From positions 1,739 to 65,738 of the IMG/VR virus record IMGVR_UViG_3300030943_000011: a DNA stretch of 64,000 bases; one strand, 5' to 3'. This stretch comes from a virus. Taxonomy: Duplodnaviria > Caudoviricetes. The notes beneath the pieces are model-generated. The model was not told where the DNA came from, did no database searches, and saw nothing but the letters and a program-made list of their open reading frames with translations. Below are positions 3,501 to 63,945 of the stretch, in pieces (position 1 is the first letter of the stretch; each line of letters begins with the position of its first letter). A program made the position numbers and the translations under genes.

Positions 3501-4515
3501 AGGCGCACAGGGAACAGCGCTCGACGTTAGCCAGGTGAATGCGGTGCCGATATTGTTGGGACAGGAAGCTCCTGAACGTGATGATGCTTCGCTGGCCAAC
3601 CGTTGCGTATTATGCCCGGTACCTAAAAAGGAACTGTGGAGCGACAACGAAGTCGCAAATTTCCAACTCCTTAAACGATGGGAGAAAGAAGGACTTACAG
3701 AGATACTGGTTGAAGTATTGAAATGCAGGCCAATTGTAAGAGATCACTACCAAAACAAGCTGCGCATCGTGCAAAAGGAACTCCGTAAAGATTTGACCGA
3801 CGACCATTCAGTATTTCAAACCCGTGTATTAAATACGGTATCATTGTTTCTGGCCATGGTGAAGTTGTTCGAAGAGCATGTTCCCGGATTGGAATTGCCA
3901 TTCACTTACAAGGAGTTTTATCAGATTGCCCGGAAGAAGCTGATCCACCAGAGCGAAAGCATTACCAGCTCCAACCGTCTGGCCGTGTTCTTCGATACGT
4001 TTGTGCAACTCACCGAAGATACCCGTAACGGACTGATACGTGGTAAGGAATTTAAAATTGAATTGCTCGATGAAATTACCGTACGCGAAGGGCAGAAGAA
4101 CAGCAGCCTGAAGACTTTCGACGATGGGCCAAAGAAAGTATTGTTTGTAAGGCTCGAAGTGATTCACCCGAAATACCGCGACCGTGTGGGTATTCAGGAA
4201 CATTTGAAAATGAACAACCTCCAAAACTATCTGAAAGATCATCCGGCCTATATCGGAGCAGTAAAGCATAGCACATTCACCTGGCAGAACGAACACCGCG
4301 AACTGGCTGACGATAGCAGCGGCAGGGTAATATCTACCATGTTCGAAGAATCGAAACGCACCAGCGCCATTGCATTGGACTACGAGAAGTTGGGTATTGA
4401 TTTGGGTAGTTCAAGTCAGATGGAGGGAGGAAAGCCAGCATCGCCGGAACAACAGGCCGTCAGTTTGCAACTGCAGATGTATCCGAATGGAAAAGGCGAT
4501 GGATTGCCATACTGA
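580..4515 (+). CDS. DnaG-type primase fused to C-terminal P-loop NTPase/helicase-like domain
   Basis: CHC2 zinc finger (CPFHNEKTPS...CFGC), KYLNSPET, Toprim (VEGNTDV, FDGDGAG, DPD), then Walker A GPTECGKS and Walker B VVMEE; 1311 aa. Confidence 0.92.
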   Translation: MIPQDTIQKVLSAANITEVVSEFVNLKKKGVNYLGVCPFHNEKTPSMIVSPAKGIFKCFGCGKAGNAISFVMEHEAMTYPEAIEYVAKKYHVEIPKVEMTADELQKRSERDTMFTMNRVAATFYADNLKNHGQAINYLKDRDFDLVDLAKFELGSIATAWGGLLEYMSSLGYNPQQLHKAGLLSKAESGKYFDRFRDRVMFPYFDLMGHVVGFTGRILDPNPGKNDSKYLNSPETELFHKGRLLYGLFQAKAAIVKEGKAYLVEGNTDVIRFHKQGLTNTICTSGTALTVEHARLIRRFTSNLTILFDGDGAGLKAAVKGIDICIAEGLNVYVALLPTGEDPDTFAKGKSRDELYRWIEDNEKDFILLMCDLAAKDIEQKPAEKGKLINELLDIVKKVPDLITRETYFSEVANKFSLDRKKVEAGVFKEEKADELFGMIVNETAIREKDQVFIYTSKETAFANTGSDLETNSIVISGLLTAVQIGKLSGITKNLVFAEEFDYEHSASCRAGMEVSPEELIKIQRQVKQMKFLAENGFAVSLNCGDRYGNDQEYVSFSTFYFDYLAESIKPYDPDSKKEAVEAAAEFLSKLDNTTISIKTAEIAKRFGLSKADFAQVLKPFLSKVKNKVQQRNEEIMIDDEHYVFSIEKLPEYVDQKFFNKYNHFAAQNKDGKKIFYVFATEHGTLTKVGNFYMEPQFQVFSDDPLKNKRICKLNHADLRSSKYVEIPSNEMIEFGAFKKFLFRQGPYLLRNAKVFHLDTILDSIALQFPVAYELTIFGQQNEDFYTFSNAALIDGNIKYMDELGLIEHENTTFYSPSISIIYKDVRKDEDQFALDRFFIYRENKNVHFKEWAALVREVYKYNDNGCWTVLMAIMCAFRSDIFKIDRLFTTLFFIGPTECGKSQLAQSIRALYIHPDAPMFNLNSGTDAAFFTMLQRYRDAPVVMEEYNDQQISDIKFQGLKASIYDGEGKTKRQGAQGTALDVSQVNAVPILLGQEAPERDDASLANRCVLCPVPKKELWSDNEVANFQLLKRWEKEGLTEILVEVLKCRPIVRDHYQNKLRIVQKELRKDLTDDHSVFQTRVLNTVSLFLAMVKLFEEHVPGLELPFTYKEFYQIARKKLIHQSESITSSNRLAVFFDTFVQLTEDTRNGLIRGKEFKIELLDEITVREGQKNSSLKTFDDGPKKVLFVRLEVIHPKYRDRVGIQEHLKMNNLQNYLKDHPAYIGAVKHSTFTWQNEHRELADDSSGRVISTMFEESKRTSAIALDYEKLGIDLGSSSQMEGGKPASPEQQAVSLQLQMYPNGKGDGLPY

Positions 4516-4597
4516 AGCCGGACATTTTCATAATCAGACCGAAGGAAAACTAAAGGAGAAAAAAATAATAAAAAAAGCAACTGACAGGCAAAAGGGT

Positions 4598-5120
4598 GTT
4601 CCCGCGTTCCCGCGTTCCCGCACCCCGCGCCCCACGCTCTCAAAAAACCAGAGTAAAACGATTTTGCAAAACTCATGCCATTGAAAACCAAGCCGATAAA
4701 GTATGATAATAATGATAAAAAAAGTAATAATCTCTCTCTGTAAGTTGCGGGAACGATGGGTCACGCTGGGTCACGCTCTAAAAATTACTAATTTTTGGGT
4801 CACGCTGGGTCACGGTGGGACGGACGTTTTTAGCCGTGCCCCAACTTTTAATAAAAATAAGGTATTGAAAATTAATGTGTTAATCCGTAGCGGTTAGTCG
4901 TGGGAACGCGGGACGGAGAAATGGCAAAAAAAGGCCTTCTGAAAAAATAATTAATTTTTTTGCTCCAAAAACACCAAAAAACCGCCTACATATCTATTAA
5001 ATTTTAATAATCAATCAATTTTTTGAATCGAACAATATTAAAAAATGTTCAAAAAATTAGAAAAGTGATAAAAAGTAAACTAAAAAACTATTTAACAATT
5101 TTTAAAAACCAATAAATAAC
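4598..5120. promoter_or_regulatory. Putative replication origin (iterons plus AT-rich tract)
   Basis: GTTCCCGC x3 (4598-4621) with inverted copies near 4747 and 4902; TGGGTCACG x4 (4757-4776, 4796-4814); very AT-rich 4940-5120; directly after primase-helicase. Confidence 0.65.
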
Positions 5121-5220
5121 CCATGGGAAAAGAAATAAATTATGATTTTTTGGTAGATGAAATTATGGCTTACCAATTATCGAAGGAGTACAAACTTTTA
5201 AATTCATTAACACAATCGAT

Positions 5221-5499
5221 ATGGAAAAAGAAATCAAAATAGCAGCCAAACTCTACGAATGCAGAGATACTGCCAAACGTTTTTTCCGCGAAGAATATGC
5301 CGAAAGATTGAAGCCTTACATCCACATCATTAAAGAAGTAATGAAAGCCAATCAATTAGATGAACTGGAGGCTATTCTCAGGATCAGTAAAACCGAAACA
5401 TACCAAGAAGACGGAATGGTGCAACTATTGTTTATGGCTGCTGCAGTGGAAATGATGGAACCATCTGAAGAATTTTTAAACCAAACTAAAGATCAATAA
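5221..5499 (+). CDS. Hypothetical phage protein
   Basis: 92-aa ORF in tight operon spacing. Confidence 0.7.
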   Translation: MEKEIKIAAKLYECRDTAKRFFREEYAERLKPYIHIIKEVMKANQLDELEAILRISKTETYQEDGMVQLLFMAAAVEMMEPSEEFLNQTKDQ

Positions 5500-5500
5500 A

Positions 5501-5881
5501 ATGAACACACAATTTGGAGAATCATTAACAGGCGATTTCGAGGAAAGAACCTGGACGTTCGAAATGCCTGAAGACTTTACCGTTAAATCCGGAGAGTTTG
5601 CGATCGTACCAAAAGCTGAATATGAAGCATTGATTGAAAAACCAAGCTTTAACGGCGAATTGATTTTAACGCTGGAGAGCAAACGAGATTGGGTCCGTAA
5701 GGTTCCTAATTATCTTCCGGAAAAAACAAGGGCTGAACGACTGATTTGGCTCGATGCAAATAATAATAGCCTCACCATTGGCGAAGACTTTACATCTGCC
5801 GAAGAAATGAAATCATATCCTGTAAGGGTTTATCGGGTTACCAGAGTTACTGAAGCCGCGGAGAAAGTTAGAAATAAATAA
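5501..5881 (+). CDS. Hypothetical phage protein
   Basis: 126-aa ORF starting 1 bp after previous stop. Confidence 0.7.
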   Translation: MNTQFGESLTGDFEERTWTFEMPEDFTVKSGEFAIVPKAEYEALIEKPSFNGELILTLESKRDWVRKVPNYLPEKTRAERLIWLDANNNSLTIGEDFTSAEEMKSYPVRVYRVTRVTEAAEKVRNK

Positions 5882-5939
5882 CGTTAATTTTTAGACCGAC
5901 AATAGACCTATTTGAAACAAACCTTTTTAAATAAATGAT

Positions 5940-6305
5940 ATGATTAATATTCAAAATGAAGTTCAAAAAATTCATTCACAATTCGGAATGAGCGAAATGG
6001 CACTGTATAAAATACAGTTGTTATGTTATCAGTATGCCAAAGAATCAAAACAATTTAAACCAATTACGGATGAACTTCCACCTTTAGGAGTTGAATGTTT
6101 ATTACAGAACGATAAGTGGATACACTTGGATTTCAACCCAAAAGGTATTCGTATAGGTTATAGATGTGATTTAAGCGGATGGGTATCAGCATATTTTTGC
6201 AGTCAGCATGATTGTTATATGACAAGACAGGCCGATGAAGACAATGATAACTTCGAACTATCGAAAGCCGAAGATCAAATTCCGACACATTGGCGACATT
6301 ATTAA
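5940..6305 (+). CDS. Hypothetical phage protein (DUF551-like ends)
   Basis: PITDELPP near N-terminal half and PTHWR at C-terminus resemble small phage DUF551-type proteins. Confidence 0.55.
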   Translation: MINIQNEVQKIHSQFGMSEMALYKIQLLCYQYAKESKQFKPITDELPPLGVECLLQNDKWIHLDFNPKGIRIGYRCDLSGWVSAYFCSQHDCYMTRQADEDNDNFELSKAEDQIPTHWRHY

Positions 6306-6341
6306 CGTAATTAAAAGGTTAAACTATAGGAAGATAAAAAA

Positions 6342-6477
6342 TAACATCCAAAGCTATACGCAGGGCAGGTTACGAAGCGATTCACTTTCCTGTCCGCCAA
6401 GTAGCTGATACGGGCTGCAAAGCTCGAAACCCGATGCTACCTGACTTGCCGGATAGCTGAAGTTAACTGCCAGGGCT
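6342..6477. repeat. attC-like site 1 (family A, array-distal)
   Basis: TAAC 6342; arms agctatacgcagggcaggt / acctgacttgccggatagct; GTTAACTGCCAGGGCT from 6462; near-identical to site 3. Confidence 0.85.
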
Positions 6478-6608
6478 TCATTTTGTATCAATTGTTACAA
6501 ACAAGTAAAATAATTACGAAATATCGAAAAATAATTGTAAAAAAGCTTGCATGATATTACTATATATCGTATCTTTACTTCATCAAACAATCACAAATAC
6601 AAAACATC

Positions 6609-6902
6609 ATGGCAACTTTAGAAATCGGACAAACAGGAAAATTAGGAAATGAAATTTTAACAGTAGTTTCTATTTCTGAACCAACTTTTAAGTGTGACAA
6701 CGGCAAAATGTACATGATTGCAACTGCAAAATGGATGACTGAAGGAATTGAAATAGCAGCTCCAAAGGCAAAGAAAGCAAGAAAATACAACGCAGCCCCC
6801 GAAGATTATTTAACAGATATGACAAGAGAAGAAGCTGACAGAGCTGAAGCATACATGGCAAATGCAAAATTCAGACAAGCAGGTAGCTCATTAAGAAAAT
6901 AA
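6609..6902 (+). CDS. Cassette 1 hypothetical protein (paralog of 11039-11332)
   Basis: 97 aa, near-identical to second copy. Confidence 0.85.
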   Translation: MATLEIGQTGKLGNEILTVVSISEPTFKCDNGKMYMIATAKWMTEGIEIAAPKAKKARKYNAAPEDYLTDMTREEADRAEAYMANAKFRQAGSSLRK

Positions 6903-6909
6903 TAAAAAT

Positions 6910-8025
6910 ATGAATATAGCTTTAATTGACAATGATCTACTAATGAGAGATAATCATAATTTCCCCAACTTGGCAATTATGAAACTATCTGCATTTCATA
7001 AAAACAAAGGAGATGTCGTAGAAATAGCTACTTTTAATGAAATAAACCCTTTAGCGCTCTTTAAAAAAGAATACGATAAGATTTATATTTCAAAAGCTTT
7101 TACCGAAACACCAACGCCTTCATTTGTTTATAATTTACCAAATGTAAAGATTGGTGGCACTGGATTTTATTTTGATAAAGCAGAACCGTTGCCTTATGAA
7201 ATAGAACACACAAAACCTGATTACGATGCTTATAATTCAGCTTATAGAATTATAAAAGACACAATGTTTTATACTGATTATTCAATTGGCTATACTACTA
7301 GAGGATGCTTTAGACATTGCTTATTTTGTGTAAACATTAATAGTAATAAAGTTAAAGTACACAGTCATATTGATGAGTTTTATGATTCTTCAAGAAAAAA
7401 AATAGTTTTACTGGATGATAATGTTTTAGGATTACCAAACAATGAGCTTTTTAAAATATTTGATAAGTTTCAGGAAATAAATAAACCAATTAATTACAAA
7501 CAAGGACTCGATATCCGCTTGCTTTCAAAAGAACGAATTGATAGGTTATTTAGGTTAAAATATGATGGAGGAAAAGGCGGGTTTACTTATTATTTTGCAT
7601 TTGATTTATGGGAAAATAAATCCAAAATTGAAGAAAATTTAAAAATGTTTTCAGAAATGTATTTTGAAAGAAAGCCTGATGTAAAATGGTAAGAACGAAA
7701 TTGTATTGTTTTTGCGGGTTTAACCCAAATAATGAAAAATCTGAAAACTACTGGTTAACCGATTTGGAAATACTTTTTAAACGATTTGAAATAATATTTA
7801 GATATAAGGCCGCCCCTTATGTAATGAAGCATAAAGATTATAAAGAAAGTCCCTTTTTTTTACGTTTATGATGAAGTTGCAAACTATATTAATTCAATAA
7901 ATGGAACTTGTTTATCTATGAGCTTTAATGAATATTTGGATACAGCTTATAAAAACACAGTCAAAACACGTCAATTTAGAGATAAATACCCACAATTTAA
8001 AATATTATTTAACACTAAATTATAA
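6910..8025 (+). pseudogene. Radical SAM protein, broken by two apparent frameshifts
   Basis: FPNLAIMKLS N-terminus, CxxxCxxC (GCFRHCLFC), LLDDN, QGLDIRL; coding continues in other frames at ~7686 (A4 run) and ~7861 (T8 run) to a stop at 8025. Confidence 0.7.
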
Positions 8026-8030
8026 AAGAA

Positions 8031-8276
8031 ATGAAAACTTACTCATTGATCAAAACAAAGGCTGGCGAACGCAAAGGAACTGAAAATTCAAATTTTATTG
8101 GTGAAAATGAGAATGATCCTAAAATGTTGGCTGAAGTGAAAACTTACCTAACTGAATGGCTGAATAGTTATACAAGCATTTCGGATGAAGAAATTGCCGA
8201 TTTGTTTTCTGCCTTCGCTGGCAGTTTTTCTTATGACGTTTGGAGCTTTGAATTAATCGAAGAAAATGAAAATTAA
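8031..8276 (+). CDS. Cassette 1 hypothetical acidic protein (paralog of 11363-11611)
   Basis: 81 aa, conserved with second copy, overlaps the HTH gene. Confidence 0.8.
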   Translation: MKTYSLIKTKAGERKGTENSNFIGENENDPKMLAEVKTYLTEWLNSYTSISDEEIADLFSAFAGSFSYDVWSFELIEENEN

Positions 8277-8463
8277 CGAAGCTATCAAGGCTGCAAGAAT
8301 TGAGCAAAATATAACTCAAAAAGAACTTGCCGAAAAAATTGAAGTTCGCAAAGCCACAATTTCAGAGTTCGAGAGCGGTAAACATGCTCTCGGCTCTGAC
8401 AAACTCGAAGCGATAATGAACGCTTTAAATCTGACATTTTCAAAATACACGGACGCAGATTAG
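8266..8463 (+). CDS. XRE-family HTH regulator (cassette 1)
   Basis: IKAARIEQNITQKELAEKIEVRKATISEFESGK is a classical HTH_3 pattern. Confidence 0.9.
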   Translation: MKINEAIKAARIEQNITQKELAEKIEVRKATISEFESGKHALGSDKLEAIMNALNLTFSKYTDAD

Positions 8464-8609
8464 CCTTGCAGTTAACGCTCCCGCCAATACACGCAGTTGG
8501 GGATTTGAAAGATAATTTGTCAAACATAAATAAAACTTAAAAAATGAATGAACAAACGAAAACCACCGAAACCCCAATTGACGGGTATTTGGCTGTTATA
8601 ACCAGTTTT
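8462..8609. repeat. attC-like site 2 (family B, holds start codon of next gene)
   Basis: AGCCTTGCAGTTAAC 8462-8476; arms gccaatacacgcagttgggg / ccccaattgacgggtatttggc; GTTATAACCAGTTTT 8595-8609. Confidence 0.85.
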
Positions 8610-8801
8610 TCAGCCTGTCCACATTGCGGAAGCACGTATGGTTATTATAGCCGAGTCAAAATATCTGGCACGGTTGATTATCAATGTGATTTTAACGGCA
8701 ATGGCGAAAATACCAATATCGCAGATGGTTTTAATTACACAACAATCAGCAAAACTTACAGATGTATCGAGTGTCGAAAGATAATCTGTCAGATACATTA
8801 A
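8544..8801 (+). CDS. Cassette 2 zinc-ribbon protein
   Basis: CPHC...CIEC; ATG lies in loop of site 2, stop abuts site 3. Confidence 0.7.
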   Translation: MNEQTKTTETPIDGYLAVITSFSACPHCGSTYGYYSRVKISGTVDYQCDFNGNGENTNIADGFNYTTISKTYRCIECRKIICQIH

Positions 8802-8946
8802 AATTGGTTATAACGGTGGAAGCTATACGCAGGGCAGGATGCGAAGCGATTCACTTTCCTGTCCGAGAACTGGCTGATACGGGCTGCAACGCTCGAAAAC
8901 TACGGCTGCCTGACTTGCCGGATAGCTGAAGTTAGCAACTAGGCGT
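8800..8946. repeat. attC-like site 3 (family A)
   Basis: AAAATTGGTTATAAC 8800-8814; arms agctatacgcagggcagg / cctgacttgccggatagct; GTTAGCAACTAGGCGT 8931-8946. Confidence 0.87.
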
Positions 8947-8972
8947 TCATTCATCAACTTAAATCTAAAAAT

Positions 8973-9554
8973 ATGCCTTGGTACGATTTAAACGAAAAAG
9001 TAGAAACGAAAAAGGATTATTTGCAAAGAGTCAAATATGATGAGATTATTTGCAAGAAAACTAAAAATTTCATTGACATTATTGGAGATGATTTATCCCC
9101 AAATGTTCAATATCGAATGGTAACGGAACAATCTTTTAATGCAATAGTCGTAATTGAATATTTGCTTAAAAGATATGAGTTAGTTGAGATTTATATTGCT
9201 GTTTACCGAATGAATCAATTGTCAGTCAACAAACTAAAATCAATCATTGATGCCGGAAATATTAAATGTTCGATTTTGATTTCTTCGTTTTTTCGTGAAA
9301 ACAAACGATATGAACGCTGGGCCGAAGAACTGATTATGTATGCCGAAAAAAGAGAAAATGTAGAAGTTTCTTTTGCTGTAAATCACGCGAAAGTTTTTAT
9401 TGCAAAAACAAAGGATTTGAAATTTATAGTTTTTGAAGGGAGCGGAAATTTATCCGATAATGCCAGGATAGAGCAATATTTGATTGAGGATAATGAAACA
9501 ACATACAATTTTCATAAAGAATGGATTACTAACACTTTAAATTTAAAAAAATGA
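8973..9554 (+). CDS. Cassette 3 phospholipase D-superfamily (HKD-like nuclease) protein
   Basis: NHAKVFI...EGSGNLSDN...EQ fits HxK...GSxN; homologous to 21101-21697. Confidence 0.7.
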   Translation: MPWYDLNEKVETKKDYLQRVKYDEIICKKTKNFIDIIGDDLSPNVQYRMVTEQSFNAIVVIEYLLKRYELVEIYIAVYRMNQLSVNKLKSIIDAGNIKCSILISSFFRENKRYERWAEELIMYAEKRENVEVSFAVNHAKVFIAKTKDLKFIVFEGSGNLSDNARIEQYLIEDNETTYNFHKEWITNTLNLKK

Positions 9555-9865
9555 AAATCGAAAAAGAAAACGAAGAGCAGATTATCAATTTCGGAGTATT
9601 TACATATGATGCTTTGAAAATGGCCAATATTCTAAATCTTGAAGAAGCTGAAATTGCAAATGAAATGAGAGATAAAACATCTGATTTTTATAAGCTATAT
9701 CAAAAAGGCTGCGATATGGCAGACTATGTAATTGATTTAAAATTATTCGAAATGGCAAAGTCTGGCGATATAAAAGCTCTTGACAAATTAGATGATCGAA
9801 AAGAGATTCGAAATGCAGAAACAAGAGAAAGATTTAAAGAAATAGCAAGACAGAAAAGAGAATAA
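9551..9865 (+). CDS. Cassette 3 small helical protein (paralog of 21666-21956)
   Basis: 4-bp overlap with PLD-like gene; shares NEEQ..., MA.x.L.L.E, YxKG..., A..G pattern with 21666. Confidence 0.7.
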   Translation: MKIEKENEEQIINFGVFTYDALKMANILNLEEAEIANEMRDKTSDFYKLYQKGCDMADYVIDLKLFEMAKSGDIKALDKLDDRKEIRNAETRERFKEIARQKRE

Positions 9866-9903
9866 AATTCAAGAAGATAAAGATCACCATCAACGAAGCA
9901 CTT

Positions 9904-10049
9904 ACGCTTGTTGCTAACGGTGTAGCATACACGAAGTTGGGGAATAGAAAGTAATAACCTGTCAAATTTAACGAATGAAAATAGATACAGATACAGTAAC
10001 AACCTGCACCGATACCCCAATTGCGGGTATGCGAAGTTATGCACAGCTT
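9904..10049. repeat. attC-like site 4 (family B, holds start codon of methyltransferase)
   Basis: ACGCTTGTTGCTAAC 9904-9918; arms gcatacacgaagttgggg / ccccaattgcgggtatgc; GTTATGCACAGCTT 10036-10049. Confidence 0.87.
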
Positions 10050-10772
10050 TCACATGGATCTCTGTTCAGCGGGATTGAAGGTTTTGGATTAGGTGCTGCA
10101 ATGGCTGGAATCAAAACGGTTTTTAGTTGCGAATTTGAAGATTTTCAAACAAGTATTATTAAAAAGAATTTTGGAGATGAACACGAAATCAATAGAGATA
10201 TTAGAACGTATAAAAACCCGCCATTTGTTGACATCATTAGCGGTGGATTCCCTTGCCAGGACATCAGTATTGCTGGAAAAGGTATCGGAATTGGAGGTGA
10301 AAGAAGCGGCTTATGGTCTGAAATGTACCGTATTTGTGGGATCGTTAGACCAAAGTACATTATCATTGAAAACAGCCCAATGCTCCTTGTTCGAGGATTT
10401 GAGCAAGTCCTTTGCGACCTTTCCAAAATCGGGTATTATGCAGAATGGCAATGTTTATCTGGCACCGACTTTGGAATACAACAGGGTAGAGAGCGATTAT
10501 ATTGTATTGCCTACACCAACGAAATCGACAGCAAAAGGAGCTGCACGGAATCGGTATTTCGGAAGCCCTACTTACAGGGGAAATATACACGAGTATATCC
10601 GGGATGGAGAACAAGACAGTCTTTACCCTCACCCCGATTTGCTGGAAAATCTAATGTCATTCCCGATAGGATGGACAGAACTCAGTCAATAGGTAATGCG
10701 GTTCAACCGATAATTTCTCATTATCTTTTTGAATGTATCAAAATGCACTACGCCAAATTAAGTTGTGCATAA
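9975..10772 (+). CDS. Cassette 4 DNA cytosine-5 methyltransferase, main (alpha) chain
   Basis: Motif I SLFSGIEG, IV GGFPCQDIS, VI IENS, VIII QGRERL, X IGNAV; stop codon is the TAA of site 5 TAAC. Confidence 0.92.
   Translation: MKIDTDTVTTCTDTPIAGMRSYAQLSHGSLFSGIEGFGLGAAMAGIKTVFSCEFEDFQTSIIKKNFGDEHEINRDIRTYKNPPFVDIISGGFPCQDISIAGKGIGIGGERSGLWSEMYRICGIVRPKYIIIENSPMLLVRGFEQVLCDLSKIGYYAEWQCLSGTDFGIQQGRERLYCIAYTNEIDSKRSCTESVFRKPYLQGKYTRVYPGWRTRQSLPSPRFAGKSNVIPDRMDRTQSIGNAVQPIISHYLFECIKMHYAKLSCA
10093..10692 (+). CDS. Nested alternative-frame polypeptide, putative methyltransferase beta chain carrying motif IX
   Basis: 199 open codons inside the MTase gene ending LPTPT...LLENLMSFPIGWT (motif IX-like), which the main frame lacks; true start uncertain. 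Confidence 0.7.
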   Translation: MLQWLESKRFLVANLKIFKQVLLKRILEMNTKSIEILERIKTRHLLTSLAVDSLARTSVLLEKVSELEVKEAAYGLKCTVFVGSLDQSTLSLKTAQCSLFEDLSKSFATFPKSGIMQNGNVYLAPTLEYNRVESDYIVLPTPTKSTAKGAARNRYFGSPTYRGNIHEYIRDGEQDSLYPHPDLLENLMSFPIGWTELSQ

Positions 10773-10907
10773 CGGTCTGCAAGTACACGTCAGGGCTGGA
10801 CTACGGGCTGAAACCTTTCTTGTCAGAGCAAAAGACCGGGCGAATAAATGCAGACCGCACCGCACTGCTGCCAGACTTGCGGGTACTTTGCTGTTAACTG
10901 CTGGGCT
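10760..10907. repeat. attC-like site 5
   Basis: AAGTTGTGCATAAC 10760-10773; arms gcaagtacacgtcagggctgg / ccagacttgcgggtactttgc; GTTAACTGCTGGGCT 10893-10907. Confidence 0.85.
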
Positions 10908-11038
10908 TCGTTTTGTATCAATTGTTACAAACAAGTAAAATAATTACGAAATATCGAAAAATAATTGCAAAAAAGCTTGCATGATATTACTATATATCGT
11001 ATCTTTACTTCATCAAACAATCACAAATACAAAACATC

Positions 11039-11332
11039 ATGGCAACTTTAGAAATCGGACAAAAAGGAAAATTAGGAAATGAAGTTTTAACAGTAGTTTC
11101 TTTTGATAACATGACTTTCAAATGCGACAACGGCAAAATGTACATGATTGCAACTGCAAAATGGATGACTGAAGGAATTGAAACAGCAGCCCCAAAAGCA
11201 AAGAAAGTAAGAAAATACAACGCAGCTCCCGAAAATTATTTATCAGAAATGACAAGAGAAGAATCAGATAGAGCTGAAGCATACATGGCAAATGCAAAAT
11301 TCAGACAAGCAGGTAGCTCATTAAGAAAATAA
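11039..11332 (+). CDS. Cassette 5 hypothetical protein (paralog of 6609-6902)
   Basis: Near-identical duplicate. Confidence 0.85.
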   Translation: MATLEIGQKGKLGNEVLTVVSFDNMTFKCDNGKMYMIATAKWMTEGIETAAPKAKKVRKYNAAPENYLSEMTREESDRAEAYMANAKFRQAGSSLRK

Positions 11333-11362
11333 TAACCATTATAACCATTAAAACCATTTAAA

Positions 11363-11611
11363 ATGAAAACTTACTTATTGATCAAAACAAAAGCTGGCGA
11401 ACGCAAAGGAACTGAAATTTCAAATTTCATTGGTGAAAATGAAAATGATCCTAAAATGTTGAAGGAAACTGAAACCTACCTTCGCGCCTGGTTGGATAGT
11501 TACAACAACAGCCTGACACTTGAAGAGATTGACAGACTGTTTGAAAATTTTGAAGGTAGTTTCTCTTATGACGTTTGGAATTTTGAATTAATCGAAGAAA
11601 ATGAAAATTAA
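11363..11611 (+). CDS. Cassette 5 hypothetical acidic protein (paralog of 8031-8276)
   Basis: Duplicate with diverged middle. Confidence 0.8.
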   Translation: MKTYLLIKTKAGERKGTEISNFIGENENDPKMLKETETYLRAWLDSYNNSLTLEEIDRLFENFEGSFSYDVWNFELIEENEN

Positions 11612-11798
11612 CGAAGCCATCAAGGCTGCAAGAATTGAGCAAAATATAACTCAAAAAGAACTTGCCGAAAAAATTGAAGTTCGCAAAGCCACAATTTCAG
11701 AGTTCGAGAGCGGAAAACATGCTCTCGGCTCTGACAAGCTCGAAGCGATAATGAACGCTTTAAATCTGACTTTTTCAAAATGCACGGACGCAAATTAG
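11601..11798 (+). CDS. XRE-family HTH regulator (cassette 5)
   Basis: Identical to 8266-8463 product except at the C-terminal tail. Confidence 0.9.
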   Translation: MKINEAIKAARIEQNITQKELAEKIEVRKATISEFESGKHALGSDKLEAIMNALNLTFSKCTDAN

Positions 11799-11862
11799 CC
11801 TTGCAGTTAACTACTATATGTATTTTATTCTCACAACAAACTAACATTTAAAACTTTACAGC
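11797..11862. other. attI-like terminal half-site
   Basis: AGCCTTGCAGTTAAC (cassette 5 end) followed by non-hairpin AT-rich sequence, 51 bp before the recombinase ATG. Confidence 0.6.
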
Positions 11863-12696
11863 ATGAACATCGGAAACTATCAACGGCAACTTTCCGACTG
11901 GATGAAGTACAAAAAATACTCTCCGGAAAGCATAAGCAATTACGTTTCTTGTATCGGTAAGTTTCTCAAATATTTTGAAGATGAAGCAACAAAACCGAGT
12001 GAGATTTCTGCTGTTCAGATTAAAAAGTTTCTATCAACAAAACAGCAAGTAAATACTCATAAGGCTTATTTGTGTGCAATAAAGTTGTTTTACGAAAAGG
12101 TTGGACATCAACCGAGAAAGCTCGATAATGTTGAATATCCACGATCTGAAAAGAAATTGCCAATTGTTTTGAGTCAGGATGAAATACAAAAAATGTTTGA
12201 TGTTTGCGAAAACCTTAAACACCGCACTATTTTAGCATTGATTTACTCCTGTGGGTTGCGTGTTTCTGAAGTAATAAATCTGCAATGGAGTCACATCGAC
12301 TGCAGCCGAATGATAATCAACATTATTTGCGCAAAAGGGCGCAAAGACCGACAAATTGCATTACCCGAAACCATAATACCACTACTGAAAAGTTATTACA
12401 AAGAATATCACACTGAAAAATATGTTTTGAATGGTCAGTTTGGATTAAAATATTCAGACAGAAGCGTACTAGAGGTAATGAAGCAATTAGCCGCAAAATC
12501 AAAAATTAAAAAGCGAGTTTACACTCATCTTATCAGGCATAGCACATTTACGCACATGGTTGAGCAGGGCACAGACATAAACCTCATTCAGCGAATTGCA
12601 GGCCACAACAATGTTAAAACAACGATGCTCTATTGTCATCTTTCTGATAATCTTATCAGCAGAATACAATCACCAATTTCTAACATTAGAATTTGA
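11863..12696 (+). CDS. Tyrosine recombinase (XerD/IntI-like, 277 aa), candidate cassette integrase
   Basis: N-terminal SAM-like region; GLRVSE, AKGRKDR, HLIRH, AGH, TMLY = complete R-K-H-R-H-Y set. Confidence 0.93.
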   Translation: MNIGNYQRQLSDWMKYKKYSPESISNYVSCIGKFLKYFEDEATKPSEISAVQIKKFLSTKQQVNTHKAYLCAIKLFYEKVGHQPRKLDNVEYPRSEKKLPIVLSQDEIQKMFDVCENLKHRTILALIYSCGLRVSEVINLQWSHIDCSRMIINIICAKGRKDRQIALPETIIPLLKSYYKEYHTEKYVLNGQFGLKYSDRSVLEVMKQLAAKSKIKKRVYTHLIRHSTFTHMVEQGTDINLIQRIAGHNNVKTTMLYCHLSDNLISRIQSPISNIRI

Positions 12697-12735
12697 TTCA
12701 AGTATTGGAGTTGTTGAACTAAAATCGTTATTAAC

Positions 12736-12766
12736 AAAAGCCTGTTCGTAGTTGAGCAGGCTTTTT
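12736..12766 (+). terminator. Intrinsic terminator closing array/recombinase unit
   Basis: aaaagcctgttc gtagtt gagcaggcttttt. Confidence 0.8.
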
Positions 12767-12852
12767 ATGTTTTTCGAACCATACATATTAAAATTAATTT
12801 CTATATTGTAACCGCTTCATTCACCGTGTTAATCCTATAACGCGATGTAAAA

Positions 12853-13422
12853 ATGACTTCACCCGATAAATTTGTAGTTTCCATACCAGTTAAGCCTTAC
12901 GTAAAGCGCTTTATCGAATTGAACTACGGTTTACCTGCAGATTTCACCAATCACCCCGAAATTCACAAGGTTGTATGCCGCTCGTTAAAGAAACCGCGCA
13001 CTCAGTATGATAAACAATTTGAAAATAAATTGTGTACTTACACTGAAACAATTGAAATTGTAATATCACAGCGAGATTTCTACCGTTACGGTTGGGAGTT
13101 CTCGCGCACTGATGTGGTTGAATTTGGAAAGTCATTTGAATCAATCATTAAATGTAACATGCACAATGTGGTGAATATTTACCGGGGTGTTGGACTATCG
13201 ATTAAAGACAGCATCCAGAAATACCAGGTGCATTATAAAATGGAAGAAGAATACTGGCCTTATGAGTCGATCAAGAAAGAATATTACCGCCGTAGGCCGG
13301 TAAACCAGATTGATTTTTTTGTTGAGATTATTGGTAAAATAGACGAATTATTTATGCTCACATTGTCCCGCAAAAAGGACAATGTGACACCAAAAAAAAT
13401 AGAATATGAAACAGTTGAATAA
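12853..13422 (+). CDS. Putative transcriptional regulator (candidate late-gene activator)
   Basis: 189-aa basic protein immediately before the structural genes; function by position only. Confidence 0.45.
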   Translation: MTSPDKFVVSIPVKPYVKRFIELNYGLPADFTNHPEIHKVVCRSLKKPRTQYDKQFENKLCTYTETIEIVISQRDFYRYGWEFSRTDVVEFGKSFESIIKCNMHNVVNIYRGVGLSIKDSIQKYQVHYKMEEEYWPYESIKKEYYRRRPVNQIDFFVEIIGKIDELFMLTLSRKKDNVTPKKIEYETVE

Positions 13423-13864
13423 GCCTTCAGACAACATGGGTGGACTCCTGAAAATTTGGGCGGTTCCACCAACCGATATCATCATCGGAATCGACTCCGT
13501 CAGTTTTTCATCTCAGGATGATATCGTCGAAATGTATTGCTCACCAGGGAGCATGTCGTTTACCGAAAAAGAAAACAACACCCAATCGGGATTGAGCTAC
13601 AAAACCGAATTGAACGCTTTTGTACCGAAGGACTCACCCGAAGCCCAAATCATTATTGAAGGTATGTCTGGCCGGAAATGGATCGTGGTTTATCTCGATC
13701 AGAATGAACAGTATAAAGTGGCCGGAACAGTTGATATCCCCTTGCGTGTTGCTTTCGATCTGAACACCGGTTCTGATACTCCCGAACGCAACGGGCATAG
13801 CGTTTCGTTTTACGGCACCCAGCTGTCGAAGGCGAAGTTTATCAGTAATCCATTTGCTGAATAA
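13406..13864 (+). CDS. Virion structural protein, paralog of 16422-16976
   Basis: Shared NMGG N-terminus and (I/F)(V/I)V.D...QY/KY..G pattern. Confidence 0.6.
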   Translation: MKQLNKPSDNMGGLLKIWAVPPTDIIIGIDSVSFSSQDDIVEMYCSPGSMSFTEKENNTQSGLSYKTELNAFVPKDSPEAQIIIEGMSGRKWIVVYLDQNEQYKVAGTVDIPLRVAFDLNTGSDTPERNGHSVSFYGTQLSKAKFISNPFAE

Positions 13865-63357: not shown

Positions 63358-63834
63358 ATGGAATTAACACTTAAAAAAACAACAGCAAAAAAGCTCTATC
63401 CTGAAGCTCCAGCGTGGTTTCAGAAAGTATTGATCGAAACTTTTGGAGAAGATTACTTCAAAAAAAGAGAATTCACCGACATCAAAACCTTTGCGGATGC
63501 CTGCGAAGAATGTGGAATTACTGAAGAAGAGTTTGATTATCGTTTTGCCGCACTTGGTCTGGATGATGATACAATTAACTATGAAAAGCTAAAGATTGTA
63601 GTGAAAGCAATTAACCAGGGCTGGAATCCCGACTGGAGTAATTCCGATCAATACAAATACTGGCCATATTTCAATCTGTCTTCCGGTTTCGGTTTTTCGC
63701 GCTCGGCTTACTGCTGCGCTTACGCGATTACGGCTGTCGGCTCTCGCCTTTGCACTGATACCTCAGAGAAGGCTGAGTATATAGCCGAACAGTTCCAGGA
63801 AGAGTACAAGGAATACTTGCTGTATTCAGAATAA
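63358..63834 (+). CDS. DGR target protein
   Basis: Contains VR ending in VGSRLC (CLec-type G.RL motif). Confidence 0.85.
   Translation: MELTLKKTTAKKLYPEAPAWFQKVLIETFGEDYFKKREFTDIKTFADACEECGITEEEFDYRFAALGLDDDTINYEKLKIVVKAINQGWNPDWSNSDQYKYWPYFNLSSGFGFSRSAYCCAYAITAVGSRLCTDTSEKAEYIAEQFQEEYKEYLLYSE
63675..63753 (+). repeat. DGR variable repeat (VR)
   Basis: 79 bp ungapped match to 63867-63945. Confidence 0.92.
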
Positions 63835-63866
63835 TAAAAAAGGTTGTACGCTGCGTTGCTGTTAGT

Positions 63867-63945
63867 TCTGTCTTCCAGTTTCAGTTTTTCGAACTCGAAT
63901 TACAACTACGATAACACGAATACGAATGTCAGCTCTCACCTATGC
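63867..63945 (+). repeat. DGR template repeat (TR)
   Basis: AAC/AAT-rich; all 18 differences from VR are at TR adenines. Confidence 0.92.

What the first reader, a model, noticed from the sequence alone, without database searches (positions are those of the whole stretch)
8474..10049. Recombination hairpins that encode the start codon and N-terminus of their gene
Seen: family-B sites 2 and 4 have an A-rich leader and ATG in the loop, and the ORF runs through the right arm (MNEQTKTTETPIDGYLAVI; MKIDTDTVTTCTDTPIAGMRSY). The methyltransferase has no in-frame ATG between GTT and motif I, so it must start inside the site. GTT is in different frames in the two cases, so the sites are not interchangeable. 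Family-A sites (1, 3, related 5) precede genes with their own starts. Inference: sites double as translation-initiation modules, which could help create cassettes from start-less fragments.
Basis: partly seen in the sequence, partly recalled or inferred. Interest (0 to 1): 0.75.

Follow-up and report, generated by a model that had tools for sequence, protein, structure and literature searches.

The report
Phage cassette hairpins that start genes
In this phage the folded DNA sites that bound its swappable gene cassettes also hold the start codon and first ~20 codons of the gene behind them, an arrangement found in about a quarter of such cassettes in related phages.

Summary
Sites at 8473-8598 and 9915-10039 are ~125-nt imperfect hairpins (left box nnnTAAC, right box GTTAnnn). 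Each has an ATG in an A-rich loop, and the ORF reads through the 3' arm and GTTA into a Zn-ribbon protein or a C5 methyltransferase. Relatives of both proteins lack the leader and start where the hairpin ends, so the site supplies the only plausible start.

The sites belong to an integron-like array of five sites, an attI-like site and a 277-aa Xer-like recombinase without the IntI insertion. Arrays of this kind lie beside related recombinases in 45 loci of phage contigs.

The cassette boundary is the left-hand TAAC, not the GTT. Each hairpin therefore travels with the gene downstream of it, and cassette movement does not split the start from its gene.

A 94%-identical copy of site 4 carries almost the same leader (one residue differs) on an unrelated protein in L225, and related copies head two more unrelated proteins in L030 and L222.

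Of 94 sites, 23 to 24 hold the only nearby ATG. No translation or recombination experiment exists. The scan had already noted this kind on other phage DNA.

The parts
6342..6465 (+). Site 1 (family A): left box TAAC at 6342-6345, right box GTTA at 6462-6465. It heads the cassette that carries the promoter-like region, ORF97, ORF260, ORF81 and the HTH gene.
   Evidence: Chain walk. DNA fold. 86% identical to site 3 (repeat D4). No ORF runs through it.
8473..8598 (+). Site 2 (family B): 5' arm about 8473-8502, loop about 8503-8571, 3' arm about 8572-8598. Single-base bulges lie on the 3' arm at 8581, 8584 and 8588.
   Evidence: The left box GCAGTTAAC is the 3' end of the previous cassette.
8544..8801 (+). 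ORF85, a Zn-ribbon protein (CPHC...CIEC). Its ATG lies in the loop of site 2. Residues 1-18 are encoded by the loop, the 3' arm and the GTT of the right box.
   Evidence: There is no other in-frame ATG, GTG or TTG after the box. 75 of 78 remote relatives align only from query residue 14 or later, and the ten relatives fetched include ones that start M(x2-10)CPHCG.
8811..8934 (+). Site 3 (family A). It heads the cassette with ORF193 (8973-9554) and ORF104 (9551-9865), which have their own starts.
9915..10039 (+). Site 4 (family B): 5' arm about 9915-9942, loop about 9943-10014, 3' arm about 10015-10039. ATG at 9975 in the loop and ATG at 10029 in the 3' arm.
   Evidence: 93.6% identical to a site in L225 and 89.6% identical to one in L030, both followed by unrelated genes.
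9975..10772 (+). C5 cytosine DNA methyltransferase, 265 aa. Residues 1-24 or so are site-encoded. Its stop codon TAA (10770-10772) is the TAA of the left box of site 5.
   Evidence: PF00145, E 6.7e-38, from residue 28. 114 of the 120 listed relatives do not cover the leader. N-termini are shown. Stop codon inside the box.
10770..10896 (+). Site 5 (related to family A). It heads the second copy of the promoter-ORF97-ORF82-HTH module (10903-11811).
   Evidence: 82% identical to a site in L030.
11798..11830 (+). attI-like site: GCCTTGCAGTTAA|C followed by TACTATATGTAT. The TAAC (11808-11811) lies 55 nt before the recombinase start. Inferred crossover is at or next to the TAAC.
   Evidence: The TAAC plus TAnTATATGTA motif is conserved upstream of the recombinase in relatives, while the sequence to its left varies. 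Homology between loci starts at this TAAC in 21 of 21 pairs.
11863..12696 (+). Tyrosine recombinase, 277 aa, Xer-like, without the integron-integrase insertion.
   Evidence: PF00589, E 4e-35. It falls below the curated cut-offs of XerA, integron integrase, XerC and XerD models. It aligns to IntI4 residues 9-180 and 246-319 with 23 residues in between, where IntI4 has 65.

Best explanation
The two hairpins are attC-like folded recombination sites of a phage-borne, integron-like cassette system. The system has a small Xer-like recombinase, an attI-like site just upstream of it, and an array of cassettes.

Polarity is the reverse of bacterial integrons. Each ~125-nt site lies at the 5' end of its cassette, on the coding strand. 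A cassette reads C + site body + GTTAnnnn + gene(s) + nnnnTAA, and the crossover is at or beside the left-hand TAA|C.

The site is therefore transcribed as the leader of its own gene. In sites 2 and 4 the A-rich, largely unpaired loop holds the initiation codon. The 3' arm, the GTTA box and the flank that pairs with the cassette's 3' end are translated as the first 18-24 residues. The gene bodies join the site exactly where free-standing relatives have their own initiator Met, so the site's ATG is the only start.

Shown by comparison: the anatomy of the sites, the cassette boundaries, the absence of the leader in relatives, and the recurrence in 23-24 of 94 sites.

Inferred: that translation really starts in the loop, that the + strand is the folded substrate, and that cleavage falls between A and C. 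The last point rests on analogy with integrons.

Over evolutionary time the same site body, with its leader, has been joined to unrelated gene bodies at the GTTA box. The process that does this is unknown.
For: Array and boxes:
- There are five sites, and each right-box flank is complementary to the next left-box flank.
- Chain walking finds 103 sites (94 distinct) in 45 loci beside related recombinases.
- Control: a site is found from 34 of 49 attI starts, against 4 of 402 random TAAC starts.

Boundary at the left box:
- The conserved attI part lies to the right of TAAC.
- In 21 of 21 locus pairs the recombinase/attI homology begins within 21 nt of that TAAC, and exactly at it in 7.
- L078 2806-3124 and L086 8133-8449 are 90% identical from one left-box TAAC to the next, with unrelated flanks on both sides.
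- 29 of 94 cassettes use the TAA of the next left box as their stop codon, and 45 more end within 15 nt of it.

Strand: the + strand folds better than the - strand in 47 of 65 sites, equally in 4 and worse in 14. Window sites 2, 3 and 4 also fold better on +.

Start in the loop:
- No ATG, GTG or TTG follows the box in ORF85.
- The methyltransferase domain starts 6 codons after the box.
- 114 of the 120 listed methyltransferase relatives do not cover the leader.
- 15 of the 28 relatives I fetched start 1-7 residues before THGSLFSG. I chose those 28 for varied length, so they are not a random sample.
- 12 of 14 viral loci carry plain genes starting M(x..)LTHGSLFSG (by inspection).
- 75 of 78 ORF85 relatives align only from query residue 14 or later.
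- 23 of 94 sites have an in-site ATG and no further ATG within 20 codons after the box. Window site 4 adds one more.
- In predicted RNA folds the -15..+5 region around these 24 ATGs is unpaired with probability 0.65, against 0.25 for the arms. The 20 bases upstream are 54% A.

Leader is tolerated rather than conserved: P0001 is 98% identical overall, and 4 of its 6 differences fall in the first 26 residues.
Against: - No experiment shows translation starts or recombination.
- No RNA run holds the locus. The laid contigs gave no cassette joints.
- Single-sequence folding energies are unremarkable.
- Sites were selected with a stem-score threshold, which inflates the gap between cognate and non-cognate arms.
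- Only one whole-cassette match in two contexts was found, against 9 site-only matches whose homology stops at or just after the right box.
- The two copies of the promoter-ORF97-HTH module are 94% identical from just after the right box, but they carry different site bodies, 72% identical over the last 36 nt. A boundary only at the left box does not predict this.
- 13 of the 36 fused cases have their own ATG within 20 codons after the box, so the loop ATG may be unused there.
- In L102 a leader ORF 92% identical in DNA to one in L088 ends after 27 codons. Leader ORFs therefore exist without being fused to a gene.
Confidence: 0.78

Rival explanations
1. The crossover is at the right-hand G|TT, as drawn for bacterial attC sites. 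Each hairpin then belongs to the cassette upstream of it and lends its ATG and leader to whatever start-less gene fragment is inserted behind it. Frame at GTT would decide which pairings work.
For: - Site bodies with their leaders recur in front of unrelated genes, and homology ends at GTTAT. Window site 4 matches L225 at 93.6%, L030 at 89.6% and L222 at 83.8%.
- The two module copies in the window share sequence from the right box onward but have different site bodies.
- Box complementarity alone cannot tell left-box from right-box crossover.
- The - strand folds better in 14 of 65 sites, so it could sometimes be the substrate.
Against: - The attI-like site has the form nnnTAAC plus a conserved right part. 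GTT is absent there in most relatives, which read GCTAAC, TATAAC or ACTAAC.
- The last cassette's 3' end pairs with the right flank of its own upstream site.
- The cassette shared by L078 and L086 starts and ends at left boxes.
- 29 of 94 stop codons coincide with the left-box TAA.
- A right-box boundary would cut 36 of 94 first genes away from their only or first ATG.
Confidence: 0.1
2. The leader frames are by-products. Loops are A-rich and happen to contain ATGs and open frames. The real starts are elsewhere, and the hairpin acts only as a recombination site and 5' untranslated leader.
For: - 62 of 94 sites have some ATG-led frame open through the right box, and 26 of these end within 30 codons.
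- 13 fused cases have their own ATG soon after the box.
- In L078 and L086 the domain-proximal Met lies 6-7 codons after the box.
- The leader sequence evolves fast.
Against: - For the two window genes no ATG, GTG or TTG lies between the box and the first conserved motif, and relatives start exactly there.
- 23 further cassettes have no ATG within 20 codons after the box. Several have conserved N-terminal motifs within about 5 residues of it, for example LSLFDGISC, VNADCFD and WWSGG.
Confidence: 0.08
3. The hairpins are not recombination sites. They would be regulatory RNA or DNA structures, such as translational operators, terminators or REP-like repeats, that happen to flank accessory genes.
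For: - There is no experimental recombination data.
- No joints appeared in the laid contigs.
- The RNA hairpins are predicted to be stable at about -30 kcal/mol.
Against: - The sites are linked to a tyrosine recombinase with a conserved half-site in 45 loci.
- The chained box complementarity has no regulatory rationale.
- Array content differs between phages whose recombinases are up to 97% identical, with breaks exactly at TAAC.
- One cassette occurs in two different arrays.
- No Rfam family matches the region 6000-12000.
Confidence: 0.04

Closest known systems
Integron gene cassettes and attC sites (IntI, attI, attC; class 1 integrons, Vibrio chromosomal integrons)
   Same: - Arrays of promoter-poor cassettes are bounded by imperfect hairpin sites with conserved ...AAC / GTT... 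boxes, and the four neighbouring variable bases are cassette-specific.
- Extrahelical bases sit on one arm.
- A half-site lies next to the start of a tyrosine recombinase gene that points away from the array.
- The better-folding strand is the recombinase's sense strand.
- Site families are shared by cassettes with unrelated genes.
   Different: - The recombinase has no IntI insertion and is closest to XerA-type proteins.
- Every cassette gene is written the other way round, so the site precedes its gene and is transcribed and partly translated.
- The element sits in a phage genome.
- Sites are ~125 nt with 60-70-nt A-rich loops.
- The integron attC covariance model was not available to test.
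ORF-11, ORF-17 and ORF-18 in attI1, and short ORFs inside attC sites (passages of the review PMC8876359)
   Same: A recombination site carries a translation start that helps express a cassette lacking its own initiation region. About 20% of class 1 cassettes lack one, according to that review. ORF-11 spans the crossover point.
   Different: Those are separate short peptides that act by translational coupling or reinitiation, and they belong to attI or to the preceding cassette. Here the site's ATG is fused in frame to the gene, so the site encodes the protein's N-terminus, and site and gene are one mobile unit. The 27-codon unfused leader ORF in L102 is the nearest look-alike.
attC clusters without an integrase (CALINs) and integron fragments in phage genomes (Qi et al. 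2023, PMC9892861; I read the abstract and section 3.4 and ran a term search)
   Same: attC-type sites in virulent phages, including a Bacteroidota (Polaribacter) phage. DNA methyltransferases are frequent cargo.
   Different: That study used IntI- and attC-model-based detection. It reports no dedicated non-IntI recombinase, no attI-like site and no reversed polarity. The terms 'start codon', 'Xer' and 'N-terminal' occur 0 times in its main text. Its supplements were not seen.
Fused integron cassettes, for example gcuF1-blaOXA-28 and aac(6')-Ib with a foreign N-terminus (passages in PMC8876359)
   Same: The N-terminus of a cassette protein is supplied by sequence outside the original gene.
   Different: Those are rare accidents caused by attC loss or insertion. 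Here the fusion is to the intact, presumably functional site and recurs in about a quarter of cassettes.

Membership tests
Integron (sensu stricto) | IntI-type integrase carrying the extra segment (around helix I2) between the catalytic patches | tested here: not met
   The protein is 277 aa. TIGR02249 scores 162.6 bits against a cut-off of 265, in two stretches. The alignment to IntI4 (2a3v) covers residues 9-180 and 246-319, with only 23 query residues where IntI4 has 65.
Integron (sensu stricto) | attI site next to the integrase start, with the array on the far side and the integrase transcribed away from it | tested here: met
   TAAC plus TAnTATATGTA lies 53-57 nt before the start in most relatives. 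Sequence left of it varies and cassettes lie to the left.
Integron (sensu stricto) | attC-type sites: imperfect hairpins with RYYYAAC / GTTRRRY boxes and extrahelical bases | tested here: inconclusive
   nnnTAAC ... GTTAnnn boxes, imperfect stems and single-base bulges on the 3' arm are present. The curated attC covariance model used by IntegronFinder was not available, and Rfam gave nothing.
Integron (sensu stricto) | Cassette ORF upstream of its attC, read outward from a Pc promoter at the integrase end | tested here: not met
   All cassette ORFs point toward the recombinase, and the site precedes its ORF.
Integron (sensu stricto) | Recombination of one folded strand, with cleavage between A and C of the AAC triplet | not testable with these tools
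   Indirect only. The + strand folds better in 47 of 65 sites, and boundaries map to the TAAC. TAAC is invariant, so the exact bond cannot be placed.
Xer/dif systems (XerC/D, XerA, XerH) | Equivalog-level match to a Xer recombinase, plus a ~28-bp dif-type duplex site | tested here: not met
   The best model is XerA at 183 bits against a cut-off of 220. XerC and XerD score about 150 against about 330. The sites are ~125-nt hairpins in arrays, not a single dif.
attI1 ORF-11-type translational coupling | A short, separate ORF in the site that ends at or before the cassette gene and promotes reinitiation | tested here: not met
   In the window both leader ORFs continue in frame into the gene, for 85 and 265 aa. 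One unfused 27-codon case exists in L102.

The most novel reading that the evidence does not exclude
The hairpin bodies are exchangeable 5' expression modules (leader, ATG and N-terminal peptide). The system would have two exchange points. The usual one, at the left TAAC, moves whole cassettes. A rarer one, at the right GTTA, perhaps through the complementary strand, re-pairs site bodies with gene bodies in frame. That would let the platform adopt ORFs stripped of their own start and build new N-terminal fusions. It would also be a visible trace of how cassettes are born, which is an open question for integrons.
Probability: 0.3. Interest if true: 0.85.

Novelty: new variant of a known kind. 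Interest (0 to 1): 0.68.

Why it matters
Integron biology treats attC sites as non-coding tails behind promoterless genes, and how a gene acquires its site is unsolved.

Here a related phage-borne system puts the site in front of the gene and uses it as the translation start and N-terminus. One ~125-nt element then has to satisfy a recombinase, fold as single-stranded DNA, stay open as mRNA around the ATG, and encode a tolerable peptide.

This matters in three ways:
- Gene callers and protein databases will mis-start or mis-cluster these cassette proteins.
- Tools built on IntI and attC profiles are likely to miss the whole system: the recombinase scores below the integron-integrase cut-off, though no integron-detection tool was run here.
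- The sharp junctions between shared leaders and unrelated gene bodies give a concrete handle on cassette genesis.

The cargo seen includes many DNA methyltransferases, which suggests a role in counter-defence. Function was not tested.

Tried and rejected
- RNAalifold on a MAFFT alignment of 65 sites gave no consensus structure, because the 5' arms were misaligned. I replaced it with an anchored arm-pairing score and a cognate versus non-cognate control.
- A first hairpin scanner without the chain rule was too noisy and missed site 3. I dropped it.
- My chain walker broke inside L030, so I read that array by eye.
- Megablast of window 4500-13500 against cultured phages found only one unrelated gene.
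- tblastn of the recombinase against the phage collection found nothing above 33% identity. No cultured model phage is at hand.
- No RNA holder is listed for the locus.
- Contigs of four runs gave no joints and only loose ends, one at 10040 next to the right box of site 4. This says nothing about expression or excision.
- ORF85 has no word-sharing relatives other than itself. The full HMMER scan found 78.
- I first suspected that the methyltransferase was frameshifted, because of the overlapping ORF 10093-10692. I rejected this: the 265-aa frame is conserved over its full length in relatives.
- Literature searches found no description of start codons inside attC-like sites of phage cassettes or of this Xer-like platform. 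They cover only the held open-access library. Supplements are closed, including those of PMC9892861.
Full report
WHAT IS THERE. The window is 64,000 of the 65,738 bases of a one-contig phage genome. Almost all genes lie on the + strand. Between 6342 and 11811 lie five sites of 124-127 nt: 6342-6465, 8473-8598, 8811-8934, 9915-10039 and 10770-10896. Each has a left box nnnTAAC, an imperfect stem of about 28 bp, a loop of 60-70 nt and a right box GTTAnnn. No further copies of their core motifs pair up elsewhere in the genome.

The bases after each GTTA are complementary to the bases before the next TAAC. GTTATAAC pairs with GTTATAAC, GTTAGCAAC with GTTGCTAAC, and GTTATGCAC with GTGCATAAC. The outermost pair is GTTAAC with GTTAAC.

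The array ends at GCCTTGCAGTTAAC followed by TACTATATGTAT, with the TAAC 55 nt before a 277-aa tyrosine recombinase gene (11863-12696).

THE OBSERVATION. All points hold.
- Site 2 has its ATG at 8544 in the loop, behind an A-rich stretch. The ORF reads through the 3' arm with GTT as codon 18.
- Site 4 has an ATG at 9975 in the loop and a second at 10029 in the 3' arm. There the GTT is split as AGT TAT.
- After the box the methyltransferase has no in-frame ATG until codon 20, which lies behind motif I. Pfam PF00145 starts at residue 28.
- ORF85 has no ATG, GTG or TTG after the box.
- The three A-type sites are followed by genes with their own starts.

IS IT MORE THAN CHANCE? A single fold is not convincing. 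DNA z-scores are -1.5 and -0.5, and RNA z-scores are -2.0 and -0.8. The family evidence is.
- Searching IMG/VR with the recombinase and then with an alignment of seven relatives gave 84 loci in all, 7 from the first search and 77 more from the second.
- Most carry TAAC plus TAnTATATGTA about 55 nt before the start codon, with variable sequence to the left.
- Walking upstream from that box, by requiring a complementary right box and then a hairpin, found 103 sites (94 distinct) in 45 loci. Their modal length is about 125 nt.
- The same step succeeds from 34 of 49 attI starts but from only 4 of 402 random TAAC positions downstream of the recombinase genes.
- Cognate arms pair far better than arms swapped between sites, 33.1 against 14.5, and 57 of 65 lie above the 95th percentile. 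The sites were pre-selected at a score of 22 or more.
- The + strand, which is the sense strand of the recombinase and of all cassette genes, pairs better than the - strand in 47 of 65 sites because of G-T pairs.

WHERE THE CASSETTE BOUNDARY LIES. Box complementarity fits a crossover in either box, so I looked for other evidence. Four lines point to the left box.
(a) The attI-like half-site has the form of a left box. GTT is not conserved there: relatives read GCTAAC, TATAAC or ACTAAC. The conserved part lies on the recombinase side.
(b) In 21 of 21 locus pairs that share recombinase/attI homology, including one pair at 97% identity, the homology begins 0-21 nt from that TAAC.
(c) One cassette occurs in two unrelated arrays. 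L078 2806-3124 and L086 8133-8449 are 90% identical from the left-box TAAC of one site to the left-box TAAC of the next, and both flanks are unrelated.
(d) Cassettes are trimmed to their ORFs. In 29 of 94 the last ORF uses the TAA of the next left box as its stop codon, as the window's methyltransferase does, and in 45 more it ends within 15 nt.

A cassette is therefore C + site body + GTTAnnnn + gene(s) + nnnnTAA. Read on the other strand, this is the standard integron layout of integrase, attI and cassettes. The difference is that every gene is antisense to the usual direction.

THE GENES START IN THE SITE.
- The methyltransferase has 2567 relatives at E <= 1e-10. Of the 120 listed, 114 cover only 77-92% of the query and are mostly 235-250 aa long. 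Six cover 96% or more.
- Of the 28 I fetched, chosen for varied lengths, 15 start 1-7 residues before THGSLFSG. These include proteins from Bacteroides and Limibacter genomes.
- Five carry long T/N/D/E-rich leaders ending (C/S)YA(P/Q/S)L(S/T)HG and C-termini ending GA/CA/EA-stop. Those C-termini are what GCATAA|C would encode.
- Of 14 viral loci, 12 hold plain genes starting M(x..)LTHGSLFSG with no hairpin seen upstream. One (L120) is a cassette whose gene has its own start after the site. One (L111) is a cassette starting in the loop of a different site.
- For ORF85 a full HMMER scan found 78 relatives. 75 align only from query residue 14 or later, and 63 from within their own first 12 residues.
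- The ten relatives I fetched include ones that start M(x2-10)CPHCG.
- In ORF85 the GTT of the right box sits where the relative P0122 has its ATG: V-ITSFSA-CPHCG against M-IKNFKS-CPHCG.

HOW GENERAL IT IS.
- Of 94 distinct sites, 62 have some ATG-led frame open through the right box.
- In 36 that frame continues at least 30 codons.
- In 23 there is no further ATG within 20 codons. Window site 4 is a 24th, because its next ATG lies behind motif I.
- Several of these have a conserved N-terminal motif within about five residues of the box.
- The ATG lies mostly 42-69 nt before GTTA.
- In predicted RNA folds the region around these 24 ATGs is unpaired with probability 0.65, against 0.25 for the arms. 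The 20 bases upstream are 54% A and 83% A+T.
- Relatives of the recombinase sit mostly on contigs binned as Bacteroidota, 8 of the 12 best. From my own knowledge, not from a call, initiation in that phylum relies on A-rich unstructured leaders rather than Shine-Dalgarno pairing.

LEADERS ON UNRELATED PROTEINS. Site-only homology is common: 9 pairs at 75-92% identity with unrelated flanks.
- A pattern search of metagenomes found a site 93.6% identical to site 4, from 14 nt before the TAAC to GTTAT. Its leader MKIDTDTVTTCYDTPIAGMRSY continues into an unrelated 155-aa protein with no Met of its own in the 70 residues printed after the box.
- L030 has MEIDTNTVTTCYDTPILGMQSY on a 167-aa protein. 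L222 has a related leader on a 238-aa protein.
- These bodies share no significant similarity. The best cross-hit has E = 0.017.
- In L078 and L086 one leader (MRNENMIE.QNPQCVQ...V|TGS) heads a C5 methyltransferase and a PAPS-reductase-like protein. Both domains start at residue 26.
- In L088 and L102 sites 92% identical in DNA carry the same leader ORF. One runs into a methyltransferase and the other stops after 27 codons.

The site with its start is thus a module that has been joined to different genes, often right at the GTTA box. A left-box crossover cannot produce this. Possible causes are cassette genesis from a template site, occasional exchange at the right box, or ordinary homologous recombination. 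I cannot tell which.

The two copies of the promoter-ORF97-HTH module in the window show the same pattern. They are 94% identical from just after the right box, behind different site bodies.

COMPARISON WITH WHAT IS KNOWN. The system works like an integron but fails membership on the integrase, which has no IntI insertion, and on cassette polarity. Known parallels for 'translation signals in recombination sites' are ORF-11, ORF-17 and ORF-18 in attI1 and short ORFs in attC. Those act by coupling, not by fusion (passages of PMC8876359). Phage attC clusters with methyltransferase cargo are in print (PMC9892861: abstract, section 3.4 and a term search), but without this recombinase, this polarity or site-embedded starts. 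Four literature searches found nothing closer. The scan's own earlier notes describe the same kind of array and site-embedded starts in other phage genomes. They prompted but are not independent evidence.

VERDICT. It is partly wrong: the cut point is the left TAAC, so site and gene are one cassette. Nothing here has been tested experimentally.

Noticed in passing
window 10093-10692 (+), inside the methyltransferase gene 9975-10772: A 199-codon ORF in another frame overlaps the methyltransferase. It contains LPTPT and ENLMSFPIGW-like stretches that resemble methyltransferase motifs. The main 265-aa frame is conserved over its full length in relatives, so it is not a frameshifted pseudogene.
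   Followed up: partly
window 6473-8476 versus 10903-11811: The module of promoter-like region, ORF97, ORF81/82 and a 65-aa HTH protein is present twice (85-94% identity). Each copy sits behind a different family-A site. The first copy holds an extra 260-aa ORF and further small ORFs (6910-8025). Both copies end in GCCTTGCAGTTAAC.
   Followed up: partly
94 cassettes in L001-L104 and the window: Cassette 3' ends are trimmed as tightly as the 5' ends. In 29 of 94 the stop codon is the TAA of the crossover box, and in 45 more the stop lies within 15 nt of it. The last residues of these proteins are also dictated by the site's outer stem.
   Followed up: yes
loops of many sites, for example L059 73-198, L068 1615-1740, L078 2806-2932 and L102 226-352: The 3' half of the loop carries a recurring A-rich consensus, roughly ACAAAAC..TTAAATTAAAC.ACC.AAT, across otherwise different sites. 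It could be a binding site, a translation enhancer or the shared ancestry of the leaders.
   Followed up: no
genome bases 1-1738 (before the window) and window 63358-63945: A reverse transcriptase of the diversity-generating-retroelement type (YADD-type motif region) is encoded at the start of the contig.
   Followed up: no
window 4590-4915: Between the 1311-aa primase fusion and the next genes lie clustered short direct repeats: TGGGTCACGCTGGGTCACG four times at 4747-4824, and GTTCCCGC repeats at 4593-4625 with an inverted partner at 4899-4913. This looks like an iteron or origin region.
   Followed up: no
L030 (IMG/VR contig, minus strand), about 9790 to 1090: A chain of 13 sites carries at least three DNA methyltransferase cassettes. 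It ends in an attI-like TAAC + TTGTATATAT with no recombinase gene behind it on that contig.
   Followed up: partly
L185, L193, L196 (genome contigs): Close relatives of the recombinase, with arrays, sit on short contigs binned as Patescibacteria or Saccharimonadales, alongside the Bacteroidota majority. These may be mis-binned phage contigs.
   Followed up: no
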